Below are positions 2,246-51,942 of a stretch of 64,000 bases of DNA, in pieces. The notes below the pieces were generated by a model, which had not been told where the DNA came from, searched no databases, and saw only the letters and a list, made by a program, of their open reading frames with translations. This stretch comes from an uncultured Gammaproteobacteria bacterium (GTDB lineage: Bacteria; Patescibacteriota; Patescibacteriia; S139-126): assembly GCA_964620905.1 (NCBI GenBank), contig CAZUKA010000002.1:121154-185153 (forward strand). The letters run 5' to 3'. Within the stretch, counting starts at the first letter, position 1; every line of letters begins with the position of its first letter. The position numbers and the translations under genes are program-made.

Positions 2246-3592
2246 ATGAAACAAATTTTTGCCTGTACCAAGTGCGGAGCACAGTTTCAAAAGTGGGAAG
2301 GTCGGTGTCGGGAGTGTGGTGGTTGGGGGACTTTACAAGCGGAAAACGTGAGTACCAGCACTGAGAAAAAAAATAGTAATAATTTCAATCCGCTTGATGC
2401 GGATATTATTGATTTAAGCCAAGTGACAGCTGGAAGTGTTGGTAGGATAAAAATTGGTGAGCTAGAAATAGATCGTGTGTTGGGTGGTGGCTTAGTACCT
2501 GGTTCATTATTATTACTTGGTGGCGATCCAGGGGTTGGCAAATCAACTTTGGTTTTGCAGATAACTGACTATTTGTCTAAACAAGATAAAGATATTTTGT
2601 ATGTTTCTGGGGAAGAATCAGCCGAACAGGTAAAAGGCAGAGTAGAAAGAATGAAAATCAATACAAAACATCTTAAATTTATTGCCAGTACGCAAGTTGG
2701 GGCAATTTGTGCAACTTTGACAAAGTACAAACCAACGTTGGCTGTGATTGATTCAGTACAGACTATGGTTTATGAGGAAGTGGAAACCGAAGCAGGTGGT
2801 GTGTCTCAAATTCGGGCTGTGGCAGCAAAATTGATGGAAACTGCCAAGCAAAACAATATCTGTATAATTTTGATTGGTCATGTAACCAAACAAGGCCGGG
2901 TGGCAGGTCCCAGAACCATGGAACATTTGGTGGATGTAGTGTTGTATTTGGAAGGTGACAAGCAACAACAGTTTCGTATTTTGCGGTCAGTAAAAAACCG
3001 TTTTGGGTCAACTGGTGAGGTGGGAATATTCAAAATGAGTACACGGGGACTTGAACCAGTGAAGGATCCAGCTGGAATATTTGTTCAAAGTCAGCAGTTT
3101 AGTCCAGGAACTATTCACTCGGTGATGTGGGAGGGTAGTCGAGCATTTTTGGTGGAAATTCAGGCTTTGACTTCAGCTACCAAATTTGGCTATCCCAAGC
3201 GGACGGTCAATGGACTGGATTATAAACGAGTGGAAATGTTACTGGCGGTGCTACAAAAAAGAGCCAAAATTTTTTTGGCTAGTGATGATGTGTTTATCAA
3301 TTTAGCCGGAGGTATCAGTAGTAAAGATCCAGGTCTTGATTTGGGAGTTTGTTTGGCTGTAGTATCGGCTAAATCAAATCAGTCTTTTAGTCTACCCACA
3401 GCCGCTATGGGTGAAGTGGCTTTATCTGGGCAAGTAAAAGCATCAGCACAGCTAGAAAAAAGAGTTCGGGAAGCAGTCAGGTTGGGTTATAAGAAAATTA
3501 TTATCCCTAAAACCAATATCAAAATTACCAGTAGTAAAGTCGAAATTTTACAGGTGGAAAATATTTTGGAAACAGTGAATAATAGCTTTTAG
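2246..3592 (+). CDS. radA: DNA repair protein RadA/Sms
   Basis: N-terminal C4 zinc ribbon (CTKCGAQF...CRECGGWG), Walker A GGDPGVGKSTL, RecA-like core, and Lon-protease-like C-terminal domain. Confidence 0.92.
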   Translation: MKQIFACTKCGAQFQKWEGRCRECGGWGTLQAENVSTSTEKKNSNNFNPLDADIIDLSQVTAGSVGRIKIGELEIDRVLGGGLVPGSLLLLGGDPGVGKSTLVLQITDYLSKQDKDILYVSGEESAEQVKGRVERMKINTKHLKFIASTQVGAICATLTKYKPTLAVIDSVQTMVYEEVETEAGGVSQIRAVAAKLMETAKQNNICIILIGHVTKQGRVAGPRTMEHLVDVVLYLEGDKQQQFRILRSVKNRFGSTGEVGIFKMSTRGLEPVKDPAGIFVQSQQFSPGTIHSVMWEGSRAFLVEIQALTSATKFGYPKRTVNGLDYKRVEMLLAVLQKRAKIFLASDDVFINLAGGISSKDPGLDLGVCLAVVSAKSNQSFSLPTAAMGEVALSGQVKASAQLEKRVREAVRLGYKKIIIPKTNIKITSSKVEILQVENILETVNNSF

Positions 3593-4891: not shown

Positions 4892-6949
4892 CTATTCGGG
4901 ATGAATAAATGTATATTTATTGGTAAATTCTTTTTTAAGCAAAGGATATAGGTCAAGATTGGGTGAGGTGGTTATTATTTTTTGAGCTGCTTCTCTGGCA
5001 TTTTTTATTGTTTCCCAATCGTTAAGATCAGCAATCTTTAAATTCCAAAAACCTGATTGTTTGGTGCCATATAGTTCTCCACCGCCTCGATTTTTTAGGT
5101 CATATTCGGCTAGTTTTATGCCATCATCATAAAGAGTCATAGCTTGCAGGCGATGTAAGGTATTTTTGTTTTGATTGTCAGTAAAAAGTAGACAATAGGA
5201 TTGAATGTTCGATCGACCGACTCTACCTCTAAATTGATGTAATTGTGCCAAGCCAAATCTATCGGCCCCCTCGATTATTATTAAGTTGGCATTGGGAACA
5301 TCAACGCCAACTTCTATCACTGATGTGGATACCAAAATATCAATTTTTTTATTTTTAAAGTCAGTCATAATTTTTTCCTTGACAGCTGATTTTAATTTGC
5401 CGTGCAGTAAACCAATTCTAAATTGGGGAAATATTTTGGTAGTCAATTTTTCGTATTCTTGAGTGGCTGCTTTGACACCTAAACGATCTGATTCATCAAT
5501 TAGTGGGCAAATGACAAAAGCTTGTCCGCCGGCTTGGATTTTGTTGGCAATAAATTGATAGGCCTGAATACGGTTTTGTTCAGCAACAATTTTTGTGATT
5601 ATTTTTTTTCTACCCAGTGGTTTTTCACGAATAATTGAAATATCCAAATCACCATAGATAGTAAGAGCTAAGGTTCTAGGAATTGGCGTGGCGGTCATTG
5701 AGAGAAAATGGGGAATAGTATTTTTTGTTTTGTCTTTTAGTTTTTTTCTTTGTTCAACACCAAAGCGATGTTGTTCATCAACAATAATTAGGCCAATATC
5801 AGTATAAGCAACTTTTTCTTGCAATAAAGCGTGAGTGCCGATAATTATATCCACTTTTCCTTGAGACAAAAATTTTTTTAGTTCGGATTTTTTTATATTT
5901 GAGTCATTTATTTTTTGATGTGTTCTAGTGAACAGACAAATATTTAGTTTGAATTTTTTCAGAGTATTTTGAAAAGTGTGGTAGTGTTGTTGGGCTAGAA
6001 TTTCAGTTGGTGTCAAAACTATGGACTGTAATTTATGTATGGCACAATTTAAACAGGCAATAGCTGCTACAACTGTTTTTCCAGAACCTACATCACCTTG
6101 CAACAATCGATTCATGGGTTGAGTAGCACTGATATTTTTCAATATTTCCCAAGCTGATTTTTTTTGGTCTACGGTCAAAGTAAATGGCAATGATTTTACT
6201 AAATCCCTAGTTTCTTCTTGATGGAAAGGGATAGTTGGGGCTGTTTGTTTGGCTAGTAATTGTTTATTTTTTTCCTTTTGTAATGAAATAAAAAAGAGTT
6301 CATCAAATTGCAGTCTTTTGGTAGCCAGTAAAAATTCGTTTTTCGTTTTTGGCCAATGAATATTGTATAAGGCTTGATTGAGGGAGGGTAATTGGTATTT
6401 ATTGGTAATTATATTTGGTAAATAATCTTGGTAGTTGTTTAAAAGCGGAGTAATAATTTTTATCAGTTGACGTAGTTGTTTTTGACTTATACCTTGGGTG
6501 GTTGGGTAAATTGGAATAATTCTGCCAGTATGAATGTGCTGTTCAGTTTTTTCCCACAGAGGATTGGTAAATTGTAGAGTATGATAGTCATCATCTACTC
6601 GGCCAGAAATATATATTTCCTCACCTCGATTTAAGTATTTATGTAAATAAGGTTGATTGAACCAAATAGTTTTGATAGAACCTGTCTCATCGCTAATCAA
6701 ACATTCAGTTAGGTGCAAACGTCTGTGTCTAGCTCGGCGACTGGAAATAAGTTCTATTTTACCTTTCACAGTAGCAGTTTCATTTATTTTCAAATCAGCA
6801 ATAGGCTTGAGGTTAGAAAAATCTTCAAAACGATAAGGAAAATGCCAAAGTAAATCTTGGGCATAGATTAGACCAATTTTTTTTAGTTTATTGGCAGTCG
6901 CTTTTCCAACTTTTGGTAAGTCAGAAAGTTTGGTATTTAGAGTTAGCAT
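4892..6949 (-). CDS. recG: ATP-dependent DNA helicase RecG
   Basis: Wedge/OB N-terminal region. Helicase motifs GDVGSGKT, DEQHRFGV, TATPIPRT and QxxGRVGR. Confidence 0.9.
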   Translation of the reverse strand: MLTLNTKLSDLPKVGKATANKLKKIGLIYAQDLLWHFPYRFEDFSNLKPIADLKINETATVKGKIELISSRRARHRRLHLTECLISDETGSIKTIWFNQPYLHKYLNRGEEIYISGRVDDDYHTLQFTNPLWEKTEQHIHTGRIIPIYPTTQGISQKQLRQLIKIITPLLNNYQDYLPNIITNKYQLPSLNQALYNIHWPKTKNEFLLATKRLQFDELFFISLQKEKNKQLLAKQTAPTIPFHQEETRDLVKSLPFTLTVDQKKSAWEILKNISATQPMNRLLQGDVGSGKTVVAAIACLNCAIHKLQSIVLTPTEILAQQHYHTFQNTLKKFKLNICLFTRTHQKINDSNIKKSELKKFLSQGKVDIIIGTHALLQEKVAYTDIGLIIVDEQHRFGVEQRKKLKDKTKNTIPHFLSMTATPIPRTLALTIYGDLDISIIREKPLGRKKIITKIVAEQNRIQAYQFIANKIQAGGQAFVICPLIDESDRLGVKAATQEYEKLTTKIFPQFRIGLLHGKLKSAVKEKIMTDFKNKKIDILVSTSVIEVGVDVPNANLIIIEGADRFGLAQLHQFRGRVGRSNIQSYCLLFTDNQNKNTLHRLQAMTLYDDGIKLAEYDLKNRGGGELYGTKQSGFWNLKIADLNDWETIKNAREAAQKIITTSPNLDLYPLLKKEFTNKYTFIHPE

Positions 6950-7175
6950 GAATTAATTATAACTAAATAAAAATAAATAAAAAACAGCCCTCCGCTGTAT
7001 AATTATCAATTATTAATAACCAGTTACTAGTCAATTATTTAATTTATTAATTAACTAATTAGAAAATTCATTAGATATTAGTTATTAGTAATTGGTTTTA
7101 TTTATTATTTATTCTAGTTTCAATATTCTAAGTTTAATTATGGTGCCCCCGATAGGATTCTCATCCAGTCATTTT

Positions 7176-7250
7176 TGGTGCTCTCAGTAGGAATCGAACC
7201 TACATTACGAGATCCGCAATCTCGCGTTCTATCCGTTGAACTATGAGAGC
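7176..7250 (-). tRNA. tRNA-Arg (anticodon read as GCG)
   Basis: A 75-nt cloverleaf on the minus strand: acceptor GCUCUCA/UGAGAGC, D-stem GUUC/GAAC, anticodon stem CGAGA/UCUCG with loop UUGCGGA, T-arm GUAGG-UUCGAUU-CCUAC, then ACCA. Confidence 0.75.
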
Positions 7251-7410: not shown

Positions 7411-7914
7411 TTATATTTTCAACTTGCGGCTAATATTCTCTGAAATCGGTTCGCTTTCGCGCTCGATGTCTTCGTCAATATATTCCAATAAAGTATTTCT
7501 AATCTCAACTGGATTTTGGTCTTGCAAAGGAATAGGCAGTCTAGGAAGAAGCAGACTTTTGAATTCCAAATATAAATTTTTAACTTCCGGCGGCTGATAA
7601 TTTATCCAAAAATTTTTTAACTCCGGCCATTCGTAAAGCATTTGGTTTAGTATCACACCTTCTTCAGTAATACGGAAACGAATATTTTCCGGTTCTCTTT
7701 GACGGTTAATATAAATAATGACCGTGGCGATAATTAAAATGAAAATAAATAAAATATTGCTGGTGGCCACACCATAGATGATAAGAAGCGTTAGAACCAC
7801 ACTATAACCAATCAGCCAGGAACGACTGTAATGGTGTTTGATAAATTCAGGAAATTGCCAAGCTGCTAGTTCTTTACCCACTTCGTGTTCTTCTTTTGAT
7901 AAGTCTTTTGGCAT
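7411..7914 (-). CDS. membrane protein (2 TM), hypothetical
   Basis: 167-aa ORF with two hydrophobic helices and an acidic C-terminus. Host-like composition. Confidence 0.5.
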   Translation of the reverse strand: MPKDLSKEEHEVGKELAAWQFPEFIKHHYSRSWLIGYSVVLTLLIIYGVATSNILFIFILIIATVIIYINRQREPENIRFRITEEGVILNQMLYEWPELKNFWINYQPPEVKNLYLEFKSLLLPRLPIPLQDQNPVEIRNTLLEYIDEDIERESEPISENISRKLKI

Positions 7915-8039
7915 ATATCTGGATTATACAAGATTTTTATCAGTTTGACAATTATAAACAGTTAGTTATAATATAGACAAAGAAGATATTTTAGTGTGCT
8001 GTGGTGAGTTAAAAACTTACCTTAGCACATTAACAAAAC

Positions 8040-8180
8040 CGCCATTCTAATTTGTGCGGTTTTTTGTTTATCTTGTCCTTCTAGTACTGTTGTTTTTTGA
8101 CAATAGTACTAGGAGGGCACAGGCAGACAAACTGCCGCAGGCACTTAGGGTTGGTCACCTAAGCTGTGAGTTCTCCTCAT
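8040..8180 (+). ncRNA. candidate structured RNA or 5' leader (GC-rich, multi-hairpin)
   Basis: GC-rich island inside a 480-nt ORF-free AT-rich gap. A 16-bp stem lies at 8085-8117 (ccttctagtactgttg / caatagtactaggagg). Nested helices AGGAG/CUCCU and CACAG/CUGUG enclose two hairpins, GGCAGACAAACUGCC and CUUAGG-N8-CCUAAG. I could not assign a family. Confidence 0.35.
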
Positions 8181-8188
8181 AATAATTA

Positions 8189-8371
8189 ATGTGTAAATTT
8201 ATGTACACAGCAATTAGAGGAGCTCTAACCTTAGCTTTGACTATTCTGGTGCTCCAGATTTTTTTGCCCGAAGTGGCTAGTGGACTAATCGCTCTAGTAG
8301 CGAGAATGCTAGAAATCGCTTTGGCGATTCTCTCCCAAGTCCCAACCTCTTTGGCGCAATAATAAATTTAA
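8189..8371 (+). CDS. small hydrophobic peptide (about 56-60 aa, 2 predicted TM)
   Basis: ATG at 8189 or 8201 gives MYTAIRGALTLALTILVLQIFLPEVASGLIALVARMLEIALAILSQVPTSLAQ, with the stop followed directly by the terminator hairpin. Too short for the ORF track. Confidence 0.35.
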
Positions 8372-8403
8372 GCTTCTGATTAATTCAGAAGCTTATTTTT
8401 TTT
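8370..8403 (+). terminator. rho-independent terminator
   Basis: aagcttctga-ttaat-tcagaagctt followed by a 9-nt T-run. Confidence 0.6.
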
Positions 8404-8713
8404 CGTAAAATATTAGAATCAAAGAAACAATCCCAATAATCACTCCTAGTATTTGATATTTATTTAAATTTTCTTTGTACAACCAAAGTCCAATAATAGC
8501 TGCTAAAATAGCACTAGCTACAGAAAAGATAATTGCTCCACGAGCTAAACCACTGCCTGATTTTAAAGCCCAAAGCCAAAAAGCATTGGCAGCTACATAA
8601 CCTAAAATAGCACCAATCCATCTGATCTTACCACCGTGCAGTGAATATTCCTTGGCAATAATATCTGCTATTGATTCAAATAGGATAAGTAAAATTAGTC
8701 CAATAACCCACAT
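8393..8713 (-). CDS. SMR/DMT-superfamily-like small 4-TM membrane protein
   Basis: About 106 aa from Met at 8713, four TM helices, a conserved Glu in TM1 (LFESIAD), similar in size to EmrE. The track ORF extends to 8785 through an upstream Met that is probably not used. Confidence 0.45.
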   Translation of the reverse strand: MWVIGLILLILFESIADIIAKEYSLHGGKIRWIGAILGYVAANAFWLWALKSGSGLARGAIIFSVASAILAAIIGLWLYKENLNKYQILGVIIGIVSLILIFYEKK

Positions 8714-10406
8714 TCTTTTTATTAATAATATAATTATAATATAATTGACAGTAATAATAAATCTCACTACAATATTTAAGTACAATTAAATATATGGAGA
8801 GGTGGCCGAGTGGCTGAAGGCGGCAGGTTGCTAACCTGTTATAGGAGTTTAAATCCCTATCGAGGGTTCGAATCCCTCCCTCTCCGCCAGATTGGCAACT
8901 TTGAACCTTAGTCACGGCAAGGGTTTTTGAGCCCTTGCCACCGACTTTTGGGGGTTCGAAATTGCTAGAGTTTAAGTCCATAAGAACATCAAAGACTGGC
9001 GTCCATATCGGCGTCAGTTTTTGATTTTGCACCGTGAAGCCCTCAAAGCACAGCTTCACCAGTGTTCGCTTCTGATGCATACCACTGGTCTGGAATACTT
9101 TGTCGGCGTGTTCCGTGAAGTCGAGTATCTCGTTAAACTTTTGCACGAATTTGTCCGACTTACCCTCAAGAATCGACAAGCGTTCCTGATACATCTCTTT
9201 CTCCTTTAAAAGCTCGTCCTGAATCTTTATAAACACATCTGCGTCTATGATGCGTTTTGAGCGATCCACAACGATGTTACGGATCTGTTGTTGCACCCTT
9301 ACCAACTCCTGCTTGAGAGTCCTTCGTTCCTTTTCTTCCTGACCCATTCGCTCTTTGGCGAAGTGCTGGAAGTAAGCATCCAAGACCTTCTTAAATCGAT
9401 CCGGCAACTGCACCCTAGAGAGATGCATTGCGACCTGTTCCTCAACCGTCTCCCATCGTATGTATTTACGCTCTGAACAAGCCTTGTCGTTCCAATGGGT
9501 GCATGCGTAGTAGAGATGACCCTTTTGCGTCTGTCCACAGAGCGTAGAACCGCAGACGGCACATCGCATAAAACCGGCCATCGGATAGGAGTGCTTGCGA
9601 CTGCGATCAGCAGAGTGATTGTGTTGTTGGATGATCTCTTGAACGTCATCAAATACCTTTTTAGTAATCAAAGATGGAAAGTTTGCCTGACATGTTGCTG
9701 AACGGGTTTTAACAAGACCATAGTAGATCGGGTTTGCGAGAATGTGTTCGATCGACGTCCGTCTCACTAAATTGCCGTACTTACTTTTGAAACCACGCTT
9801 GGCAAGTTCGGCCGCAAGCGAATCGTAGCTGTACTTTCCAGTCGCGTAGAACTCGAAGGCCATCTTTATAAATGGTGCTCGTAGATTGTCGACAATGAGC
9901 GATTTTGTTTTCTTGTCGTTTAAGTAGCCAGTCGGTGCGTATCCAGGGAACCGGCCACGCTCTACGGCCTCCTTGAGACCCTTCTTGACCTCCCAGCTGA
10001 TGTTCTGGGACGTCCATTGAGCAATTGAGGACATGATGTTCTCGACCAACTCTCCGGAGAAAGACTCATCAAATTGCTCGACCACCGAGATCAGACGAAC
10101 GTCATGCTTTTTGAGCATCATCTTGATGGCCGCATAGTCGGCAACGTTGCGACACATACGGTCCAACTTGTGCATTAAGATAACGTCGACCTTGGCATCG
10201 GTCTTTGCTCGGTGAAGCATTTTTTGAAGCTGTGGACGTTCGACCGTTCGAGCCGATTCGCCCTTCTCCTCGTAGATGCCATCCTGTGCAAGATTCCAGT
10301 GGTGATCCATGCCGTACTTCTGACATGCTTTCACCTGTGCTGGAATACTCAGTTCTCGTTCGGCCTGACGAGAGGTAGAGACACGGCCGTAGATTAAATA
10401 ATTCAT
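8676..10406 (-). CDS. large serine recombinase (phage integrase)
   Basis: N-terminal resolvase catalytic domain (YGRVSTSRQ), recombinase domain, zinc ribbon (CAVCGSTLCG...YYAC), coiled-coil. The ORF has no stop before attL. Its last ~70 codons are the antisense of tRNA-Ser, so the phage-encoded part ends near 8890. Confidence 0.85.
   Translation of the reverse strand: MNYLIYGRVSTSRQAERELSIPAQVKACQKYGMDHHWNLAQDGIYEEKGESARTVERPQLQKMLHRAKTDAKVDVILMHKLDRMCRNVADYAAIKMMLKKHDVRLISVVEQFDESFSGELVENIMSSIAQWTSQNISWEVKKGLKEAVERGRFPGYAPTGYLNDKKTKSLIVDNLRAPFIKMAFEFYATGKYSYDSLAAELAKRGFKSKYGNLVRRTSIEHILANPIYYGLVKTRSATCQANFPSLITKKVFDDVQEIIQQHNHSADRSRKHSYPMAGFMRCAVCGSTLCGQTQKGHLYYACTHWNDKACSERKYIRWETVEEQVAMHLSRVQLPDRFKKVLDAYFQHFAKERMGQEEKERRTLKQELVRVQQQIRNIVVDRSKRIIDADVFIKIQDELLKEKEMYQERLSILEGKSDKFVQKFNEILDFTEHADKVFQTSGMHQKRTLVKLCFEGFTVQNQKLTPIWTPVFDVLMDLNSSNFEPPKVGGKGSKTLAVTKVQSCQSGGEGGIRTLDRDLNSYNRLATCRLQPLGHLSIYLIVLKYCSEIYYYCQLYYNYIINKKNVGYWTNFTYPI
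8796..8889 (+). tRNA. tRNA-Ser (anticodon GCU)
   Basis: Acceptor GGAGAGG/CCUCUCC, anticodon stem GCAGG/CCUGU with loop UUGCUAA, long variable arm, T-arm GAGGG-UUCGAAU-CCCUC, discriminator G plus CCA. Its 3' end is the attachment-site core. Confidence 0.85.
8871..8899 (+). repeat. attL direct repeat (tRNA-Ser 3' end)
   Basis: aatccctccctctccgccagatt(G)gcaac matches 47985-48013 with one mismatch. Confidence 0.8.
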
Positions 10407-10457: not shown

Positions 10458-11174
10458 TTAATATTTTTTTATGTGATATGTCAGCCTTCCTAACATCTTG
10501 CTTTCACTCAGAGGGTAGGATTTCTTGAACCCTTCCTTCTCCGGTCGAAGCTCAAGATGGTCGCCCCTCACTTGGTAATAAGTCATCGCCAAACCATCCG
10601 GCGTGCTCATGATCACAATGTCACCATTTTTGGTTGGTGCATCGGCATCAAGGATTATGAAGTCCCCGGAAAGAATACCGGCATCGGGGAGTGCAAGATC
10701 GGATACACGGAGTCCAAATACTCGATGTCCCGGAATCACACCATCCTTGGGAAGTAAAACAAAATCACTCGTTCGACTCAGATGACCATCGAGATCGTCG
10801 ATGGGGATCGCTACGAGCACCGGCAATTTGAAATGACCATCAACAGAAAAAGAATTTTTCAATTCCTCAAGCCCTTGCTCAAGTCTGCTTGCGGCCTCGT
10901 GTACACGCTTCTCGCCGACACCCTTGATGTCGAATTTATAATTGCTCTCCATGCTGACCTGTCGGATTTTGCCTTCGGTCCAACGCTTCCTCACCTCCTC
11001 CTCGGGGAGTTGGTAGGCCTTAGCGAAAGTGACCAGCTGTTTCTGAGATGGAATGCGAGCTCCATTCTCCAGCTGGCTGATATAGCTCGACGAAAAACCG
11101 AGCCGCTCGGCCAGCTCTTTTATAGTCCACTTATTCGATTCTCTTTGTTTTTTTAGATATGAACCAAATGACAT
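10458..11174 (-). CDS. CI/LexA-like repressor (XRE HTH plus S24 peptidase-like C-terminal domain)
   Basis: N-terminal HTH (WTIKELAERLGFSSSYISQLENGARIPS), C-terminal beta-rich LexA/CI-type domain. Divergent from the Cro-like gene. Confidence 0.7.
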   Translation of the reverse strand: MSFGSYLKKQRESNKWTIKELAERLGFSSSYISQLENGARIPSQKQLVTFAKAYQLPEEEVRKRWTEGKIRQVSMESNYKFDIKGVGEKRVHEAASRLEQGLEELKNSFSVDGHFKLPVLVAIPIDDLDGHLSRTSDFVLLPKDGVIPGHRVFGLRVSDLALPDAGILSGDFIILDADAPTKNGDIVIMSTPDGLAMTYYQVRGDHLELRPEKEGFKKSYPLSESKMLGRLTYHIKKY

Positions 11175-21159: not shown

Positions 21160-21576
21160 TTAGAAAATCTTCGGATTAAGAATTCCACTAGAAAAAGCTT
21201 CTTGGAGGGGATCAAATATCTGATACTTTCTTAAGTAAAAAGGGTTTATGTATATCTCTGGCCAAGGTTGATCGTGTATAGAAAATTTCTTCCAAGCTCC
21301 AATTGCCAATAAGGCAAGCAGTGCGAGAAGTGCAGAAAGAAAAGATAGAGCATCTTTTGCCGGAAGCGTGGTAAACATGCTCTGCCATTCCTGAATATGC
21401 TCCATCGGGTTCATTTTGCAGATAGACATCGAGTGACCGCTGAACGGACAGTTTCCTGTTGCAGTACTCATGTCCATTGCTCCAAGACCGAAACACGATA
21501 TGCCAAAAAGAAGGACAGTAAGAACTGCAAGTATGATGGGAAACTTTATTATGTTTTTAGTCGATTTGAAAAACAT
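21160..21576 (-). CDS. membrane protein, hypothetical (Cys/His/Met-rich loop)
   Basis: 138 aa with two TM helices and a NCPFSGHSMSICKMNPMEH loop that may bind metal. Confidence 0.4.
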   Translation of the reverse strand: MFFKSTKNIIKFPIILAVLTVLLFGISCFGLGAMDMSTATGNCPFSGHSMSICKMNPMEHIQEWQSMFTTLPAKDALSFLSALLALLALLAIGAWKKFSIHDQPWPEIYINPFYLRKYQIFDPLQEAFSSGILNPKIF

Positions 21577-21593
21577 ATATCAATTATACAAAA

Positions 21594-24383
21594 TTAAAAT
21601 CCATACTGATCCATTCGTAATTTGAAGGCATCACGGCCACCCTCAGTGACGAGGATTATTTCTTCCTTAATTTCCTTTTTATCGATTGCACCCATAGCTT
21701 TGATTGATCCACGGGTCTGGTCGCCAGCTTTTATGTAATCGCAACAGACTACAAGTTCGGCATCGCCATTAACGACAAAGTTTGCACTGTGGCTTGCAAA
21801 AATAAGCTGTCGTTTACTCTTAGCTCTCCAGACCTGCTGGACGATATCTTTGAACATCTTACTATCGATATCGTCTTCTGGCTGGTCAATGATTAGTGGC
21901 GCACCTGACTGATTCAAAAGGACGGTGAGCAAAGCCGTTGCTTGTTGGCCAGCTGACGCATCTGAAAATCCGATATAGTCTTTCTTTGCCTTGTTGGTGC
22001 AATAAGAAAACTTTGGATTAAATTCCAGCTCTGTGACAGAGAGGTCGAGCCACCGTGCAGAGTCAAAGCTAGTCGCAATTCTTGTGCGTTCAGTATCGAT
22101 AAAATTGCACTTATTAAGAATCGGAGTATCCGGCATCTCATCGGGTCCCTCCGTAGAGTGCAGTGCGAGCTTCTCAAGTTCTGAAAGAATGCCGTTCCAC
22201 TCAACAAGTGGATTGCTGGCTTTCAACAGAGATTGACAGATTTTCTCAAGCTTCGCTTCGTTGATATTCATACCGGAAAAAGCCGTCTTGAGTTTTAGAG
22301 TGAGGGCGTTGGTGTCCAGACTGTTTGTGATTTCCGCCTTAATGAGATCACCGGATAGTGCGGTGAACTGAGTACATTGCTTTTCAAGAGCCTTGATCTT
22401 TTGAGTATGCAAGCCGTCCCACTTAGTGCGGAGTTTTTTGTACGCAGTTTCCGGATCGCCAAGAGCCGCAAGCGCGTTGCGTTTTTCCGTCTGCTGTTTT
22501 TTGAGTGTGGCGATACGCTTCTCAAGAGTTTGTATCTGATCGAGCTGTTGCTGGTTAACCTTAGCTTTTACTTTTGCGGCCTCGTATTTCTTATCAAATG
22601 TCACCTTAAGTTTTTCCCACTCCTTGATCTCGTCGTTGATAGTCTTAAGTGATGCTGGCTTAAAAAGATTTGAGAGTGCGGTAACGCCAGCTTCTATTTC
22701 TGTAAATTTAGAAGCGTATTTGGTTTGAATTCGGCCGATCAGAGCTTTATTCTCCAGCTCGACTTCCTCCTCTTCGACTTCCTCGCCCTCTAATGCCTCT
22801 ACAAGATTCCCGACATGTTCCTGTGTGGTCTCAAGCTCGTTTTTGAGAGCTTCAATGATCGCTTCCTCGTTATCGTATTTTGCCTTCTGATCGATAGTTT
22901 TCTGATCCTCCTTAGACAATCCCTTGAGACTCTTGCGAAGTTTTCCCAGCTGTTCGGTCGATGAAGCTATCTCTACATTATTTTTATTGACCTCCGCCTC
23001 GATTTCATTCATCCGGATTAAATCACCATAAGCGGATCGCATCTTTGCTTCCGTGTCTCGCACATCCGAACGAATTTGATCGAGTTCCTGTTTGATTGGA
23101 AGTTCGACAAAACGCTTCAGCTCATCGATGCGTACACCTACGCTACTTAGCTGTTTCTGACTGTACGCTTGGATCGGAAGCAAATTTCGTACTTGCTGTT
23201 CTGTGGCCGGAGAGAATTCGCCATCGCCAATTTTAAGCAAAATTTCCTGCTTCTTTGAGTTACGTTTTACGATATGGGGTACATCGTTGAGAAGGAATTC
23301 GACATGCACCTCACCGTCAAATTTCTGGAGAGTATTGTCGATTAAATTCTTGCGCTTGGTCTGCACGATGTCCATGTCCTCGCTCTCTACCGGCTGATCA
23401 CAAAGACCCCATCGGAGATATTCGAGGATTGTAGACTTGCCTGTACCACGACCACCAATGATGGCGTTGTACTGCTGGTTTAAATCAAAGCCAACCTGCC
23501 CAAGAAACTTGGAGTTTGTGACGCTGATCGATGTGATCCAAAGATTCGGGAGTTCGGGTTCAACGAGAGAGACTCTGGATTCTCTGGCCAAGCATGCTTG
23601 ACGGAGTGCCTCTGCAGTCGGTTCTGACCATTTAACGTATGTGCTAGGTAGGCCAAGATCGGAATGATCACGTTTGCGGTTATCGGAAGTTTGAAAGACC
23701 GCAATCGGTTTGTACCCATTGTTTTGCTGGCGTCCCTCGAGGATATTTTTGTAGCCATCGCTCGACTTTGAATACTCACCATCAACATAACCACCCACGC
23801 AACGCATCTCTTTGTAGTGCTTTGCAAATCCGTCACGGAAAAGAGTTTTATGTCCTGCAGTGGTGACGTTCGGAAGTATGATGTATTTTCCTTTAAGCCA
23901 AAAGTGCTGGTTTAGTCGATCCTCGAGATCGTTCAATCCGGTGATCGATGTCGGCGATACAGACTCAACACTTGCGAGTTTGCTATTTGTCGGATCGGTG
24001 GCCGCAATAGTGAGTGTGGTCAGAATGTCCCCAAATTTTGTCTCGTCGAAATCAGCATCAAGCAAAAGTATCGCTTGGCACGGTGGAGATGAAAGTGTGA
24101 GCTCGATACCAGGAAAAACAACGATCTGATCCTGTGGTTCAATGGATTCACCGATAAGATTAACTTCCGATGCCGCCGCCGCTTTCACATACGGAAACAT
24201 GCAAAAGTCATGGTGATCAGTTATCGCAATCGCATTGAGACCTTTTGTTCGGCATGCCTGAATAAGCTCTTCTGCATAAGCTTTGCGTTCTGCTGGTGTA
24301 GCGGCTTCCGCACCGTCCCAATTTGCATCTCGGGGAGTGTGAACTTGGAAGTCGCATTTGTAGAAGTGTGCACCTTTGTCCAT
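21594..24383 (-). CDS. PHP-phosphoesterase fused to SMC/Rad50-like ABC ATPase with long coiled-coil (candidate defence protein)
   Basis: N-terminal PHP motifs (QVHTPRD, ITDHHD). Walker A IIGGRGTGKST, about 350 aa of coiled-coil, a signature-like SGDLI, Walker B LIIDQPEDDID, H-loop FASHS. Confidence 0.8.
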   Translation of the reverse strand: MDKGAHFYKCDFQVHTPRDANWDGAEAATPAERKAYAEELIQACRTKGLNAIAITDHHDFCMFPYVKAAAASEVNLIGESIEPQDQIVVFPGIELTLSSPPCQAILLLDADFDETKFGDILTTLTIAATDPTNSKLASVESVSPTSITGLNDLEDRLNQHFWLKGKYIILPNVTTAGHKTLFRDGFAKHYKEMRCVGGYVDGEYSKSSDGYKNILEGRQQNNGYKPIAVFQTSDNRKRDHSDLGLPSTYVKWSEPTAEALRQACLARESRVSLVEPELPNLWITSISVTNSKFLGQVGFDLNQQYNAIIGGRGTGKSTILEYLRWGLCDQPVESEDMDIVQTKRKNLIDNTLQKFDGEVHVEFLLNDVPHIVKRNSKKQEILLKIGDGEFSPATEQQVRNLLPIQAYSQKQLSSVGVRIDELKRFVELPIKQELDQIRSDVRDTEAKMRSAYGDLIRMNEIEAEVNKNNVEIASSTEQLGKLRKSLKGLSKEDQKTIDQKAKYDNEEAIIEALKNELETTQEHVGNLVEALEGEEVEEEEVELENKALIGRIQTKYASKFTEIEAGVTALSNLFKPASLKTINDEIKEWEKLKVTFDKKYEAAKVKAKVNQQQLDQIQTLEKRIATLKKQQTEKRNALAALGDPETAYKKLRTKWDGLHTQKIKALEKQCTQFTALSGDLIKAEITNSLDTNALTLKLKTAFSGMNINEAKLEKICQSLLKASNPLVEWNGILSELEKLALHSTEGPDEMPDTPILNKCNFIDTERTRIATSFDSARWLDLSVTELEFNPKFSYCTNKAKKDYIGFSDASAGQQATALLTVLLNQSGAPLIIDQPEDDIDSKMFKDIVQQVWRAKSKRQLIFASHSANFVVNGDAELVVCCDYIKAGDQTRGSIKAMGAIDKKEIKEEIILVTEGGRDAFKLRMDQYGF

Positions 24384-48751: not shown

Positions 48752-49411
48752 TTAGTTTTTTGCCAGCACCAGTCCGATGACTTTGTTGGCACCGTTTTGT
48801 CGCAGTACTTTAGCTGCTTCATTTAAACTCGCGCCAGTAGTGACAACATCATCTACTAATAATATTTTTTTGCCAATGATTTTTTCTTTGTTGGCAACTG
48901 AAAAAACACCGCTAATATTTTTTTGTCTCTGGTGCATATTCAATTTTGTTTGGTGTTTGTTGTATCTATGTCTAATCAATGCGTTGGTAATTAGTTTTGT
49001 TTGTAACCAAACACTAATTTCTGTAGCTAAAATTTCACTTTGATTAAAACCTCTTTCCAAATACCGTCGGTGGTGCAGGGGAATAGGTACAATAACAAAA
49101 TTTTGCAAACTTTTTGTTAATTTGTTTTTTTTGATATAAGTTACTGCTAAAGTAGCTAGTATGTTTCCCAAGTGTTGTTGATAGTGAAATTTATATAGGT
49201 CAATCAATCTGGCCAAAACATTATAATTGTAAAAACTGGCGATATGTACCTGATCAAGATAGTCTTGATAGCGGATTTTTTCTGGTGGTTGGCTGGGTCT
49301 AATAGGAATTTTTTTTAAACATTCCGGGCAGATGAACTCTCCCAGACTATTACAAGACAAACACTCTTTGGGGAAAAAGAGTGTCTGTAAGAAAGATAAT
49401 ATTTTTTTCAT
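48752..49411 (-). CDS. comFC: ComF family protein (phosphoribosyltransferase domain)
   Basis: N-terminal Cys4 zinc finger (CLSCNS...CPEC) and PRTase motif ILLVDDVVTTGASL. Confidence 0.8.
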   Translation of the reverse strand: MKKILSFLQTLFFPKECLSCNSLGEFICPECLKKIPIRPSQPPEKIRYQDYLDQVHIASFYNYNVLARLIDLYKFHYQQHLGNILATLAVTYIKKNKLTKSLQNFVIVPIPLHHRRYLERGFNQSEILATEISVWLQTKLITNALIRHRYNKHQTKLNMHQRQKNISGVFSVANKEKIIGKKILLVDDVVTTGASLNEAAKVLRQNGANKVIGLVLAKN

Positions 49412-49419
49412 ACTATCGA

Positions 49420-51942
49420 TTAGCTAACCACCAATTTTTTTTGTCGCACCGAAAGTTTAAAAGATTTTTTTAGGGAGTTTTTCAAGAAAGCATCGGCTAA
49501 CGGTTGATCAACATATTTTTCTATATTACGTCTGATTTCGCGCGCGCCTTTATTGATGGCAATGCTTGTTTGTGCTAGCCAAGTTATAGCTGTTGGAGAT
49601 ATATCCAGTTTTAGGCCACGCTTTGCCAAGTTGGTGGCCAATTCAGCAAGTTGTAACCTGACGATTTTTTTCAAACTGTTTTTATCCAAAGCGTTGAAGA
49701 CCAATATTCGATCTAAGCGATTTAAAAGTTCTGGTTTGAATTCTTGTTCTAATTCTTGGATTACTTGTAGTTTTATTTGTTCGGCTGTGAATTTTTGCCC
49801 AACTTTATTTTGGCTGAAACCAAAAGACAAAGCATTACTAAATTTGTCCGAGGCAAGATTGGAAGTCATGATAATAATGGTGTGTTTAAAATTTATTTTT
49901 CTCCCCTCGGCATCTGTTATGTGACCTTCATCTAAAATTTGTAACAACAGATTGAAAACATCCGGATGACCTTTCTCTATTTCATCAAATAATACAACAC
50001 TGTATGGTCGGCGTCTGACTGCATCAGTGATTTTTCCGCCTTCTTTGTAACCAACATAACCTGCCGGAGCGCCTATTAGTTTGGAAATATTGAAGCTTTC
50101 GGCAAATTCTGACATATCGATTCTGATCAATGATTGCTGATTACCAAAATATTCTTGTGCCAAACGTTTTGCTAGTTCTGTTTTTCCAACGCCCGAGGGG
50201 CCCAAGAATAAAAAGCTACCAATCGGACGATTTGGATTGTTTAGACCAATTTGAGCTTTTTTGATAATAGCACAAACCGAGGCGATTGCTTCACTTTGAC
50301 CGATGATGTGCTGATTTAATTTTTTTTCTAAATTATAAATTCTTTGATCGTTTTGTTGATTGAGATAAGACAAGGGAATACTGGTAATTTGCGCTACCAC
50401 CTGACTAATTTCATTGGCATCGATAGGGGGTTTGACTGGGGGATTTTGTTTTAATCGATTTTCAATTTTGGTAATTTCTTGTTTTAATTTTTTTTCTGAC
50501 TCTTTTAGACTAATGGCCAAATCATAGTTTTCTTCTTTGATAGTTTGATATTTTTGTTTATTGATCCGTTTAATTTCATCATGCAGGATCATAAGTTTTT
50601 TCTGACTGAGATTGGGTTTGTATTTAATTTTTGCTCGACTAGCAGCTTCATCTATCAAGTCGATTGCCTTGTCTGGTAAAAATTTTTCCGGTTGATAACG
50701 GATAGATAGATCAACTGCTAACAAAATAGCTTCATCACTTATTTTTACTTGGTGATAATTTTCATAATATTGGCGTAGACCTTTGAGAATATTGATGGTT
50801 TGTTCTCGGGAAGGCTCGTTGATTTGAATTGTTTGAAATCTGCGTTCCAGTGCTGGGTCAGATTCTATGTATTTACGGTATTCGTTCATAGTGGTGGCAC
50901 CAATACATCTGATTTCTCCTCGGGCGAGCGCGGGTTTTATAATATTGGCAGCATCCATAGTGCCACCGGTAGTAGAACCAGCGCCGATAATATTGTGAAG
51001 TTCGTCAATAAAAATTATTATATTTGGGTCTTGTTTTATTTCCTCTAAAATATTTTTCAGTCTTGCCTCAAATTCTCCCCGGTACATAGTACCTGCTAGC
51101 ATTAATCCTAGATCAAGATTAAGTATTTTTTTATTTTTTAATATTTCCGGCACATCATTTTGTACAATTTTCTTAGCCAGTCCTTCAACAATAGCAGTTT
51201 TGCCCACACCCGGATCACCCAATAGCAAAGGATTGTTTTTGTGACGCCGCGACAGAATTTGAATTAAACGTTCAATCTCTGATTGGCGACCAATGACCGG
51301 GTCAATTTTTTGTTGGATTTCCTCACTGGTCAGATCAATAGAAAAAAGTTCTAGTAGACTTTTTTCCCGGGTAATATTTTTTTGTTCTAAATTTTTATCC
51401 TCCTGCCAGGTGGGGTTGAATACTTCGGAAAAAACGTCGGTAATATCGGAAAAATTTGAAGTTGAGTTTAAAATAGTTTCTAGATTTTCTTGTAAGCGTA
51501 TTAGAGGTATATTTTTTTCCTGAAATAGTTGACTAATTTTTTCATCGGGTAGGAGAATAATAGCCAGTAGTAAATGTTCTGTGCCGACATAAAGATGCCG
51601 GTATTCAAAGGCCAGATTCAACATTTTGGTAATAATTTTTTGAGCAGCAGCAGAAAGTTCCAAAGTGATTATATTGTGATTGCTCATTCCTTCAACCAGT
51701 TTGTGATTTTCGCTTAAACCGTTTTTGTGTAATATTTCCGCCGCCAGGCTCCCAGGTTGTTTCAAAATGCCTTGCAGTAGATGAATTGGTTCCACGGCAT
51801 TTAAATTTTCCTGTTTAGCCAAAAAACCAGCAATCTTCAAAGCATTTTTTAAATGTTTAGTAAATTTATTAAATATATCGGCATTGATCATAAATAAATA
51901 TTTTAGTATAGAGATTATACGACAGATAACTGCATCTGGCAA
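49420..51942 (-). CDS. Clp/Hsp100 AAA+ chaperone (ClpC/ClpB-like)
   Basis: Clp_N repeats, two AAA modules (GDPGVGKT and GPSGVGKT) and a short coiled-coil linker. Confidence 0.88.

What the first reader, a model, noticed from the sequence alone, without database searches (positions are those of the whole stretch)
8040..8403. GC-rich structured RNA candidate followed by a tiny two-TM peptide ORF and terminator in an ORF-free host gap
A 480-nt gap between host genes contains a GC-rich island. It holds an unusually long hairpin (16-bp stem, 8085-8117) and a nested multi-helix fold (AGGAG/CUCCU and CACAG/CUGUG enclosing two hairpins). Next comes a short ORF (8189-8371, about 56-60 aa, two hydrophobic helices, below the ORF-track cutoff), ending at a canonical terminator (8370-8403). 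This could be a cis-regulatory leader controlling a small membrane peptide, such as a type I toxin, bacteriocin-like or regulatory peptide. It could also be an independent sRNA. I could not match it to RNase P, tmRNA, SRP or 6S signatures.
Basis: seen in the sequence. Interest (0 to 1): 0.5.

Follow-up and report, generated by a model that had tools for sequence, protein, structure and literature searches.

The report
Structured leader before tiny membrane-protein gene
The gap holds a real, previously undescribed gene unit of Patescibacteria (candidate phyla radiation bacteria): a strong promoter, a conserved four-helix RNA leader whose last helix pairs with the start of the coding region, and a conserved 53-residue membrane protein of unknown function.

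Summary
Window 7945-8403 (+) is one transcription unit:
- a perfect TTGACA-16-TATAAT promoter (7945-7972);
- a 21-bp hairpin P1 (8074-8119), then hairpins P2 and P3;
- helix P4, which pairs leader 8166-8178 with codons 6-10 (8217-8229) and encloses the AUG at 8201;
- a 53-aa ORF (8201-8362) and a strong terminator (8369-8403).

The ORF is under purifying selection (pN/pS about 0.2-0.3). It belongs to an unannotated family of about 53-aa proteins (at least 38 clusters), seen only in Patescibacteria MAGs. A covariance model built from the window's close relatives finds the leader, full length, directly upstream of every distant homologue examined. Across 14 sequences, 28 of 37 pairs carry compensatory changes.

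Nothing matches in Rfam, Pfam, NCBIfam, PADLOC or the PDB. This genome almost never uses Shine-Dalgarno sites, and AGGAGG covaries to GGUGGG, so it is structural.

Best reading: a new cis-acting leader that controls translation of a conserved small membrane protein. The trigger is unknown. A type I toxin or bacteriocin is unlikely.

The parts
7945..7972 (+). Sigma-70-type promoter, TTGACA-16 nt-TATAAT (12 of 12 matches). The predicted transcription start is near 7979. Its -35 box overlaps the -35 box of the divergent promoter for the 167-aa gene.
   Evidence: TTGACAATT...TATAAT is conserved in all 8 close homologous loci. TTGACA-type promoters also precede the leader in distant loci.
7991..8033 (+). 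5' hairpin H1, about 19 pairs. It is found only in the window's clade.
   Evidence: Compensatory changes are seen among the 8 close loci (pairs 23-70, 29-64, 33-60, 39-54).
8035..8069 (+). First intrinsic-terminator-like hairpin T1 (AAAACCGC/GCGGUUUU, large loop, then U6GUUU). It is weak, about -9 kcal/mol, and is either a leaky attenuator or the 3' end of an RNA of about 90 nt.
   Evidence: It is conserved in all 8 close loci and absent from distant loci. The sub-threshold Rfam Phe_leader hit (E 0.04) reflects only the hairpin-plus-terminator shape, and there is no conserved leader ORF (sequence reading).
8074..8119 (+). P1: a long hairpin with a variable distal part and a conserved base (GUCCUUCU / AGGAGGGC).
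   Evidence: On A12, 11 of 15 pairs have compensatory changes. It is also recovered from a MAFFT-only alignment.
8122..8136 (+). P2: a short hairpin, GGCAG/CUGCC.
   Evidence: All 5 pairs have compensatory changes.
8144..8163 (+). P3: hairpin CUUAGG/CCUAAG with a conserved loop, GUUGGUCA (the motif NGUC is conserved across the family).
   Evidence: 5 of 6 pairs have compensatory changes. The loop is complementary to codons 13-14 (UGACU, 8238-8242): 83% of cells pair, but there is no covariation.
8166..8178 (+). P4, 5' strand (GUGAG..CUCCUC). It pairs with codons 6-10.
   Evidence: I6; helices 4 and 5: 7 of 11 pairs have compensatory changes.
8179..8200 (+). A/U-rich stretch before the start codon, with no Shine-Dalgarno site. 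The motif UAAUNAUUAA is conserved. In this clade a small hairpin, UGUGUA/UACACA (8190-8195 with 8204-9), places the AUG in its loop.
   Evidence: invariant columns; the genome lacks SD sites.
8201..8362 (+). 53-aa ORF (MYTAIRGALTLALTILVLQIFLPEVASGLIALVARMLEIALAILSQVPTSLAQ, then the stop codon). It is predicted to be a helical hairpin membrane protein.
   Evidence: pN/pS about 0.2-0.3; family; AlphaFold2 pLDDT 89, helices 2-21 and 23-45.
8217..8229 (+). P4, 3' strand, inside the ORF (GAGGAG CUCUAAC, codons 6-10).
   Evidence: Codons 1-12 have no nonsynonymous changes and reduced synonymous change.
8369..8403 (+). Strong, bidirectional intrinsic terminator T2 (11-bp stem, T8, about -16 kcal/mol).
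   Evidence: A terminator follows the ORF in every homologous locus.

Best explanation
Window 7945-8403 is a monocistronic unit.

1. A strong promoter drives an mRNA whose leader of about 220 nt folds into conserved helices.
2. P1, P2 and P3 lie in series.
3. P4 pairs leader nucleotides about -35 to -22 with codons 6-10. It can extend outward through the P3 3' strand and loop to codons 11-14.
4. The AUG and its A/U-rich surroundings therefore sit in a loop of about 37 nt, clamped by a leader:CDS helix.

This organism does not use Shine-Dalgarno sites, so initiation should depend on an open start region. I infer that P4 limits or gates translation of the 53-aa membrane protein, and that the conserved P1-P3 domain sets whether P4 forms. 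One possible route is an exchange in which the P1 3' strand pairs with the P4 5' strand.

In the window's clade only, an added 5' hairpin and a weak terminator (7991-8069) sit between the promoter and P1. This should cause premature termination, and perhaps release an RNA of about 90 nt. Only read-through transcripts would then carry the gene.

Shown:
- the promoter and terminator motifs;
- the helices and their covariation;
- coding selection on the ORF;
- the linkage of leader and ORF across the family.

Inferred:
- that P4 represses translation;
- that a switch exists;
- what triggers it;
- what the protein does.
For: Conservation:
- The whole unit is conserved in 8 close loci.
- The peptide family extends to at least 38 clusters of about 53 aa, all from Patescibacteria MAGs.

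Leader linked to the ORF:
- Covariance model R1, built only from the window clade, finds full-length matches (model positions 1-180) ending inside the ORF in all 8 distant loci (E 1e-7 to 2.5e-4).
- It finds none in 16 loci that lack the ORF, and no second copy in the window.

Covariation:
- On A12, 91.2% of cells pair, against 40-50% when the partners are slid.
- 28 of 37 pairs have changes on both sides (98 cells); 0 of 500 shuffles reach this (likewise).
- P1 and P3 are recovered with covariation from a plain MAFFT alignment.
- P4 appears in single-sequence minimum-energy folds.
- P4 also appears in leader x CDS duplex predictions, in the same register in all 15 sequences: dG -21 to -35 kcal/mol, z -1.2 to -5.7.
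- P4 changes sequence but stays paired: CUCCUC/GAGGAG in the window, CCAACC/GGUUGG in L028, GUCCCUCC/GGAGGAC in L033.

Coding:
- pN/pS is about 0.2-0.3.
- Length is fixed at 53 aa.
- Serine codon-family switches occur.
- Codons 1-12 have unusually low synonymous change, as expected for a dual RNA and protein constraint.

No SD use:
- Nearly all genes in the window lack GGAG-type sites, and several are leaderless.
- AGGAGGG covaries to GGUGGGA.

Terminators: T1 is weaker than T2 (-9 to -13 against -15.5 to -21 kcal/mol).
Against: - There are no expression, 5'-end or probing data.
- The CM-derived alignments lean towards the model's structure.
- Only 14 distinct sequences were used, and 6 of them come from one clade.
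- One strand of P4 is coding and highly conserved, so part of its 'conservation' could be due to the protein.
- A closed loop presenting the AUG could aid initiation rather than block it.
- The proposed strand exchange has weak statistical support: 76-84% of cells pair, against 73-81% in shuffles.
- RNAs truncated to remove the P1 5' strand still prefer P4 in 11 of 14 cases.
- No ligand, protein or sRNA partner was identified.
- T1 may terminate efficiently. In that case the ORF would need a promoter that I did not find.
Confidence: 0.6

Rival explanations
1. Type I toxin-antitoxin-like module. The 53-aa hydrophobic peptide would be a membrane toxin. Its full-length mRNA would be translationally inert because of P4. 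It would be activated by processing, for example RNase III cleavage of the long P1 duplex. The upstream RNA of about 90 nt, or an unseen antisense RNA, would be the antitoxin.
For: - The ORF is small and hydrophobic.
- The 5' UTR is long and highly structured, with a long-range helix over the start region.
- P1 is a near-perfect duplex of 17-24 bp in every member, which is a plausible RNase III substrate.
- The window clade has a short hairpin-plus-terminator RNA next to it.
Against: - The gene is single-copy, syntenic and vertically conserved, at 40-50% identity across distant Patescibacteria. Type I toxins are typically patchy and fast-evolving.
- The peptide is neutral, or acidic in the distant family members, with no Lys/Arg-rich tail.
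- The only antisense promoter-like site (8207-8179) is weak and is not conserved in L001 (sequence reading).
- Complementarity between the 5' module and the start region is short and does not covary (sequence reading).
- The 5' module is absent in distant loci.
- Truncation in silico does not open P4 in 11 of 14 sequences.
- There is no PADLOC hit.
Confidence: 0.1
2. Ligand- or protein-sensing switch (an orphan riboswitch or protein-binding leader). P2 and P3 would be closed by the alternative helix (P1 3' strand AGGAGGGC with P4 5' strand), forming a three-way junction that binds an effector. The unbound RNA would fold into P1 plus P4, hiding the start region.
For: - The four segments are mutually complementary in every member. 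They change together at two positions: GGGC/GCCC, GGAC/GUCC and GGGU/ACCC (4 pairs with compensatory change).
- Conserved nucleotides are hard to explain by pairing alone: the P1 base sequence, the P3 loop NGUC, and GUUAGC.
- In three sequences the alternative helix is the minimum-energy fold once the P1 5' strand is removed.
Against: - Covariation for the alternative helix is barely above composition-matched shuffles.
- The CACAG/CUGUG extension is not conserved.
- Few junction nucleotides are conserved.
- The only regulated gene is a small protein of unknown function, so no ligand suggests itself.
- P4 is thermodynamically dominant.
Confidence: 0.18
3. The leader is mainly a stability or processing element, or a separate structural RNA that merely abuts the gene, with no regulatory role. 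The pairing with the CDS would be incidental to GGA/GGN-rich codons.
For: - P1-P3 are simple hairpins in series, which can protect mRNAs from 5'-end-dependent decay.
- The P4 3' strand encodes conserved residues (R/S-G-A/G-L-T), so its conservation does not by itself need an RNA explanation.
Against: - The leader strand of P4 changes to match synonymous and nonsynonymous changes in the CDS, for example UUAAGCC/GGCUUAA in L031 against GUUAGC/GCUAAC.
- Synonymous change is depressed in codons 1-12.
- There is no terminator between P3 and the ORF.
- The leader never occurs without the ORF in the sequences searched.
Confidence: 0.12

Closest known systems
Type I toxin mRNAs (hok/Sok, tisB/IstR-1, AapA1/IsoA1)
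   Same: A small hydrophobic ORF of under 60 aa. A long, strongly folded 5' UTR. A long-range helix that buries the translation start. A monocistronic unit with its own strong promoter and terminator.
   Different: No antisense or complementary sRNA was found. There is no SD site to sequester. The gene is single-copy and syntenic. The protein is conserved across a phylum-level group. The peptide has no basic C-terminal tail. Toxicity is untested.
Translational riboswitches with a sequestering helix (for example thiM TPP, or SAM-II-type expression platforms) and 'orphan' riboswitch candidates
   Same: A conserved multi-helix leader with covariation. The 3'-most helix overlaps the start region. 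Mutually exclusive pairings are possible.
   Different: No Rfam family matches. The hairpins lie in series rather than in a well-defined junction. The sequestered element is the coding region downstream of the AUG, not an SD site. The regulated gene gives no clue to a ligand.
Downstream-pairing translational control and RNA thermometers (ROSE, fourU), which occlude the start region by an imperfect helix
   Same: An imperfect helix with bulges around the start region, which could melt or be opened.
   Different: Those elements pair with the SD site or the AUG. Here the AUG lies in the loop, and codons 6-14 are paired. The only Rfam ROSE_2 hit is a chance match at the 3' terminator (E 2.5).
Terminator-based attenuators and 5'-UTR-derived short RNAs (this applies to module 7979-8069 only)
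   Same: Promoter, then hairpin, then intrinsic terminator, upstream of the gene. Rfam's Phe_leader matches this shape below threshold (26 bits against a cut-off of 55).
   Different: There is no conserved leader peptide and no evident antiterminator pairing. The module is confined to the window's clade.

Membership tests
Any Rfam 15 family | Covariance-model score at or above the family's gathering threshold | tested here: not met
   the whole window gives only two tRNAs; for 7850-8500 the best hits are miRNA and Phe_leader models, at 26 bits against cut-offs of 55-76; nothing in the distant loci.
Type I toxin-antitoxin | Small hydrophobic membrane peptide (under about 60 aa) | tested here: met
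   53 aa, with two predicted helices, 2-21 and 23-45.
Type I toxin-antitoxin | Antisense or partly complementary sRNA antitoxin encoded at the locus | tested here: inconclusive
   There is no conserved minus-strand promoter. The one consensus-like site, 8207-8179, scores 9 of 12 and degrades in L001. The 5' hairpin-terminator RNA has only short complementarity of 7-8 nt to the start region, and it does not covary (sequence reading). No transcript data are available.
Type I toxin-antitoxin | Translation start sequestered in the primary transcript | tested here: met
   P4, the leader:CDS helix, is present in all 15 sequences. There is no SD site involved.
Type I toxin-antitoxin | Toxicity of the peptide on expression | not testable with these tools
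   This needs an expression experiment.
Type I toxin-antitoxin | Typical distribution: patchy, often multi-copy, rapidly diverging | tested here: not met
   One copy in the window. Synteny is conserved: recG-167aa in the window's clade, ddl-ftsQ in distant clades. Identity is 40-50% across Patescibacteria lineages.
Riboswitch | Conserved structured aptamer supported by covariation | tested here: inconclusive
   P1-P3 have strong covariation. However, they are serial hairpins, and the junction-forming alternative helix has only weak support.
Riboswitch | Expression platform overlapping a terminator or the translation start | tested here: met
   P4 encloses the AUG and pairs with codons 6-10.
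Riboswitch | Specific ligand binding | not testable with these tools
   This needs in-line probing, ITC or a similar assay.
Intrinsic terminator (T1 at 8035-8069 and T2 at 8369-8403) | G+C-rich stem-loop followed directly by a U run | tested here: met
   T2 was found by the scan: 11-bp stem, T8, -16.4 kcal/mol. T1 was not picked up by the scan because its loop is larger than 8 nt. It folds as an 8-bp stem plus U6, at -9.3 kcal/mol.
Known protein families (Pfam, NCBIfam, PADLOC, PDB) | Significant profile or fold match for the 53-aa protein | tested here: not met
   No hits in Pfam, NCBIfam or PADLOC at E<=1 for the window's peptide; its relative P0005 has only a chance-level NCBIfam match (TrbL, E 0.072, 12 bits against a 442-bit cut-off). 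The PDB sequence search returns only designed helical repeats. Foldseek against the PDB gives 0 matches.

The most novel reading that the evidence does not exclude
The leader is a Patescibacteria-specific RNA switch. It would exchange four segments: P1 plus P4, against P1-3':P4-5' closing a P2/P3 junction. It would sense a metabolite, ion, protein or RNA, and so gate synthesis of a 53-aa membrane protein that is conserved across much of the phylum and usually sits at the end of the alr-ddl-ftsQ cell-wall and division cluster. That would make it one of very few dedicated riboregulators known in these reduced genomes, and a handle on an unknown envelope or division factor.
Probability: 0.2. Interest if true: 0.75.

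Novelty: new member of a known kind. Interest (0 to 1): 0.55.

Why it matters
Patescibacteria have tiny genomes and few known regulators, and most have never been cultured. This work finds two linked, undescribed families:
- a protein of about 53 aa that is among the better-conserved small proteins of the group;
- a leader RNA of about 180 nt with strong covariation that physically pairs with the gene's own coding region.

The organism initiates translation without Shine-Dalgarno sites. The unit therefore offers a concrete, testable case of how structure around the start codon controls translation in SD-less bacteria. In most lineages the gene lies next to alr-ddl-ftsQ, which gives it a possible link to the cell envelope or to division. 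If the leader is ordinary, meaning a stability element only, the finding still adds an RNA family and a protein family to the annotation of these genomes.

Tried and rejected
- Rfam, at gathering and permissive thresholds, on the window and on four distant loci: nothing relevant.
- Pfam, NCBIfam, PADLOC, PDB sequence search and Foldseek for the peptide: no hits.
- AGGAGG as a ribosome-binding site: rejected. The genome lacks SD use, the motif lies 85 nt from the AUG, and it covaries to GGUGGG.
- ATG 8189 as the start: rejected, because it is ACG or AAG in L001, L022 and L021.
- ORFs inside the leader: rejected as not conserved. These are the 42-aa GTG ORF at 8054-8182 and an 18-codon GTG ORF at 7994-8050 (reading).
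- An internal promoter between T1 and the ORF: none found (reading of the alignments).
- The 5' module pairing with the start region (CACAUUAA/UUAAUGUG, UGCUGUG/CACAGCA): short and not maintained in relatives.
- The 5' end pairing with the P1 5' strand (I5): not conserved in L018.
- Activation by removing the P1 5' strand: P4 still wins in 11 of 14 in-silico truncations.
- The peptide or the leader next to distant homologues of the 167-aa gene (L002-L017): absent.
- A repeat of the tRNA-Ser 3' end, as an att site for the adjacent island: none found.
- Literature searches for Patescibacteria/CPR structured RNAs or small proteins: nothing on this element.
It was rerun with A3.

Full report
**Setting.** The window is a low-GC genome (about 0.33-0.39) of a Patescibacteria/CPR bacterium. 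Relatives of the flanking 167-aa gene and of the small ORF all come from Patescibacteria, Parcubacteria or Buchananbacteria MAGs, or from mislabelled 'uncultured' MAGs.
- Gene order around the finding is: recG (4892-6949, -), tRNA-Arg (7176-7250, -), a 167-aa membrane protein (7411-7914, -), the 478-nt gap, an EamA-like gene (8393-8711, -), tRNA-Ser (8796-8889, +).
- After tRNA-Ser comes an island of about 39 kb with GC about 0.42-0.53 and a serine recombinase.

**Checking the observation.**
- The + strand of 8070-8190 folds at -52.3 kcal/mol (z = -6.3). 7978-8190 folds at -89.5 kcal/mol (z = -10.3). None of 200 shuffles did as well.
- The long hairpin spans 8074-8119 (about 21 pairs with G-U), not just 8085-8117.
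- The minus strand folds less well (-43.7 kcal/mol over the longer stretch 8040-8190).
- The terminator at 8369-8395 plus T8 is canonical.
- The mechanical ORF is 8189-8362. The conserved start is ATG 8201, giving 53 aa.

The unit therefore runs from 7945 to 8403.

**The ORF is a real gene.**
- A word-indexed search found five clusters of 52-53 aa at 71-100% identity.
- Their contigs, a genome scan and a metagenome scan gave eight full copies of the locus and one partial copy.
- Pairwise pN/pS is about 0.2-0.3. Length is fixed, and substitutions are conservative. Codons 1-12 have no amino-acid change and unusually little synonymous change.
- An exhaustive profile search, followed by a profile search of the 5.8-billion-sequence set, widened the family to at least 38 clusters.
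  - Almost all are 51-57 aa.
  - The consensus is M[YF]xA[IL]RGALTLAL.I.VLK.FLPEVA..LIELI..., ending ..DQAS.NLP.
  - All are annotated 'hypothetical', and none has a Pfam domain.
- AlphaFold2 predicts a helical hairpin (helices 2-21 and 23-45, pLDDT 89).
- No relative was found in Pfam, NCBIfam, PADLOC or the PDB, by sequence or by fold.

**The leader is conserved with the gene.**
- In the eight close loci the whole region aligns. RNAalifold predicts 79 pairs, 20 of them with compensatory changes.
- In distant family members (40-50% protein identity) the genomic context is different. It is usually alr-ddl-ftsQ, then an ORF-free gap of 450-730 nt, then the ORF, with convergent SdpI-like and ArsR genes and a PcsB/M23 peptidase further on.
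- Even so, the 180 nt upstream of the ORF show the same plan:
  - a TTGACA promoter;
  - a long hairpin P1 closed by UUGCCCUUCC/GGAGGGCAA;
  - two short hairpins, P2 and P3;
  - a pyrimidine-rich segment that pairs with codons 6-10.
- A covariance model built only from the window's clade (R1) finds full-length matches in all eight distant loci, each ending inside the ORF (E 1e-7 to 2.5e-4).
- R1 finds nothing in 16 loci that lack the ORF, and no second copy in the window.
- After one round of refinement (R2), the distant hits score 93-125 bits.

**Structure evidence.** On the 14-sequence alignment A12, 91.2% of cells form standard pairs, against 40-50% when partners are slid by 1-3 columns. 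28 of 37 pairs show changes on both sides (98 cells), and no shuffle in 500 reaches any of the five measures.
- By helix, the pairs with compensatory changes are: P1 11 of 15, P2 5 of 5, P3 5 of 6, P4 7 of 11.
- This alignment is fitted to the model, so I looked for independent support.
  - A MAFFT-only alignment recovers P1 and P3, with 18 of 24 pairs covarying.
  - Single-sequence folds show P1-P4 in nearly every member.
  - RNAduplex of leader (-60 to -9) against CDS (+10 to +48) gives -21 to -35 kcal/mol in the same register in all 15 sequences.
  - Of 200 dinucleotide shuffles, between 0 and 25 reach that energy; the count is 5 or fewer in 13 of the 15.
- P4 keeps pairing while changing sequence: CUCCUC/GAGGAG in the window, CCAACC/GGUUGG in L028, GUCCCUCC/GGAGGAC in L033, UUAAGCC/GGCUUAA in L031.

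**What AGGAGG is not.** Of about 60 long ORFs in the window, almost none has a GGAG-like site at the proper distance. Several genes (recG, the 167-aa gene, 21160-21576) have TATAAT 6-8 nt before the ATG, so they are leaderless. The AGGAGGG at 8112-8118 lies 85 nt upstream of the AUG. It is the 3' strand of the base of P1. It becomes GGUGGGA in L032 and L033, with matching changes in its partner. It is structural, not a ribosome-binding site.

**Mechanism.** The AUG and its A/U-rich, SD-less surroundings lie in a loop of about 37 nt (about -21 to +15) closed by P4. In the window's clade a further small hairpin puts the AUG in its apical loop.
- P4 can extend outwards. The P3 3' strand and the conserved P3 loop (NGGUCA) are complementary to codons 11-14.
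  - In the window's clade this extension shows some compensatory change. In L020, the P3 5' strand, the P3 3' strand and the CDS segment all changed together.
  - Across the family, the loop:CDS contact is 83% paired but does not covary.
- I infer that P4 restricts initiation, and that the P1-P3 domain modulates it.
That helix would enclose P2 and P3 and free the CDS.
  - The four segments are mutually complementary in every member, and they co-vary at two positions.
  - The statistics are only marginally above composition-matched controls.
  - P4 remains favoured after the P1 5' strand is removed in silico in 11 of 14 cases.
  - A switch is therefore possible but not shown.

**The clade-specific 5' module.** Only in the window's clade do a hairpin (with compensatory changes) and a weak terminator lie between the promoter and P1. 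This terminator folds at -9 to -13 kcal/mol and has U6-7, against -15.5 to -21 kcal/mol for the 3' terminator.
- No room or motif for a second promoter exists between T1 and P1.
- The gene must therefore be expressed by read-through. The module would act as an attenuator, and may yield an RNA of about 90 nt.
- It has no conserved leader peptide, no obvious antiterminator, and no conserved complementarity to the start region.

**Comparison with known systems.** The unit works most like a leader that occludes the translation start.
- It resembles type I toxin mRNAs in having a small hydrophobic ORF, a long folded UTR and a buried start. It fails or leaves open the other defining features.
  - No antitoxin RNA was found.
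  - The gene is single-copy, syntenic and deeply conserved.
  - The peptide lacks a basic tail.
- It resembles translational riboswitches in having a covarying leader and a platform over the start region. It has no defined junction and no clue to a ligand.
- It matches no Rfam family, and I found no paper describing it.

**Verdict.** I file this as a new member of a known kind: a cis-regulatory leader RNA, coupled to a new small-protein family. Interest is moderate. The conservation and covariation are strong and the phylum is poorly understood, but the function and the trigger remain unknown.

Noticed in passing
window 8890-47900: An island of about 39 kb with higher GC (about 0.42-0.53, against 0.32-0.39 in the flanks). 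It starts right after tRNA-Ser(GCT) (8796-8889), with a large serine recombinase next to the tRNA (ORF ending at 10406, - strand) and a repressor-like gene (10458-11174). In relative L021 the small ORF is followed directly by the PRTase and ClpB genes that lie at 48752-51891 in the window. The island, likely a prophage or integrative element, is therefore an insertion. No repeat of the tRNA 3' end was found.
   Followed up: partly
whole window (for example 6950-6975, 7915-7935, 21577-21600): The genome, and the island too, almost never has a Shine-Dalgarno motif before its genes. Several genes look leaderless, with TATAAT 6-8 nt upstream of the ATG: recG, the 167-aa gene and 21160-21576.
   Followed up: partly
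window 7923-7972: The promoter of the small-ORF unit (+, -35 box at 7945-7950) and the promoter of the divergent, apparently leaderless 167-aa gene (-, -35 box at 7951-7946, -10 box ending at 7923) have overlapping -35 hexamers on a TTTGACAA palindrome-like core. The two units may compete for RNA polymerase.
   Followed up: no
L025 2272-2830; L028 2345-2830; L029 2271-2860; L033 2396-2830; L034 2296-2830: In distant relatives, the ORF-free gap of 450-730 nt between the ftsQ-like gene and the small ORF's promoter holds two near-invariant, mutually complementary boxes, 350-400 nt apart. These are UGCGUCGCAAAAUAU and GUGUCGyuUAAGAUAUAUUGUGCGAC, and a terminator-like hairpin follows them. This may be a large unannotated structured RNA closed by a long-range helix. 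There is no Rfam hit, and the boxes are absent from the window.
   Followed up: partly
L032 3001-3252: The deposited gene call for this family member is 83 aa, because the caller extended the ORF upstream through the leader (P1-P3). The conserved 53-aa start is at 3091. The 64-93-aa members may be similar over-extensions.
   Followed up: partly
window 8369-8395 and the homologous 3' terminators (L001, L018, L019, L021-L024): The terminator stem AAGCUUCUGA/UCAGAAGCUU is identical in all window-clade loci except L020, although the sequence on either side of it varies. Seven loci share the loop ACAACGU, where the window has UUAAU. The stem is bidirectional, and it also ends the convergent EamA-like gene in the window.
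   Followed up: no
window 7411-7914 (-): The 167-aa membrane protein divergent from the unit is conserved in many Patescibacteria (31-79% identity). It has only sub-threshold Pfam matches, to DUF5673 and DUF2207_C. Its distant homologues are not next to the small ORF.
   Followed up: partly
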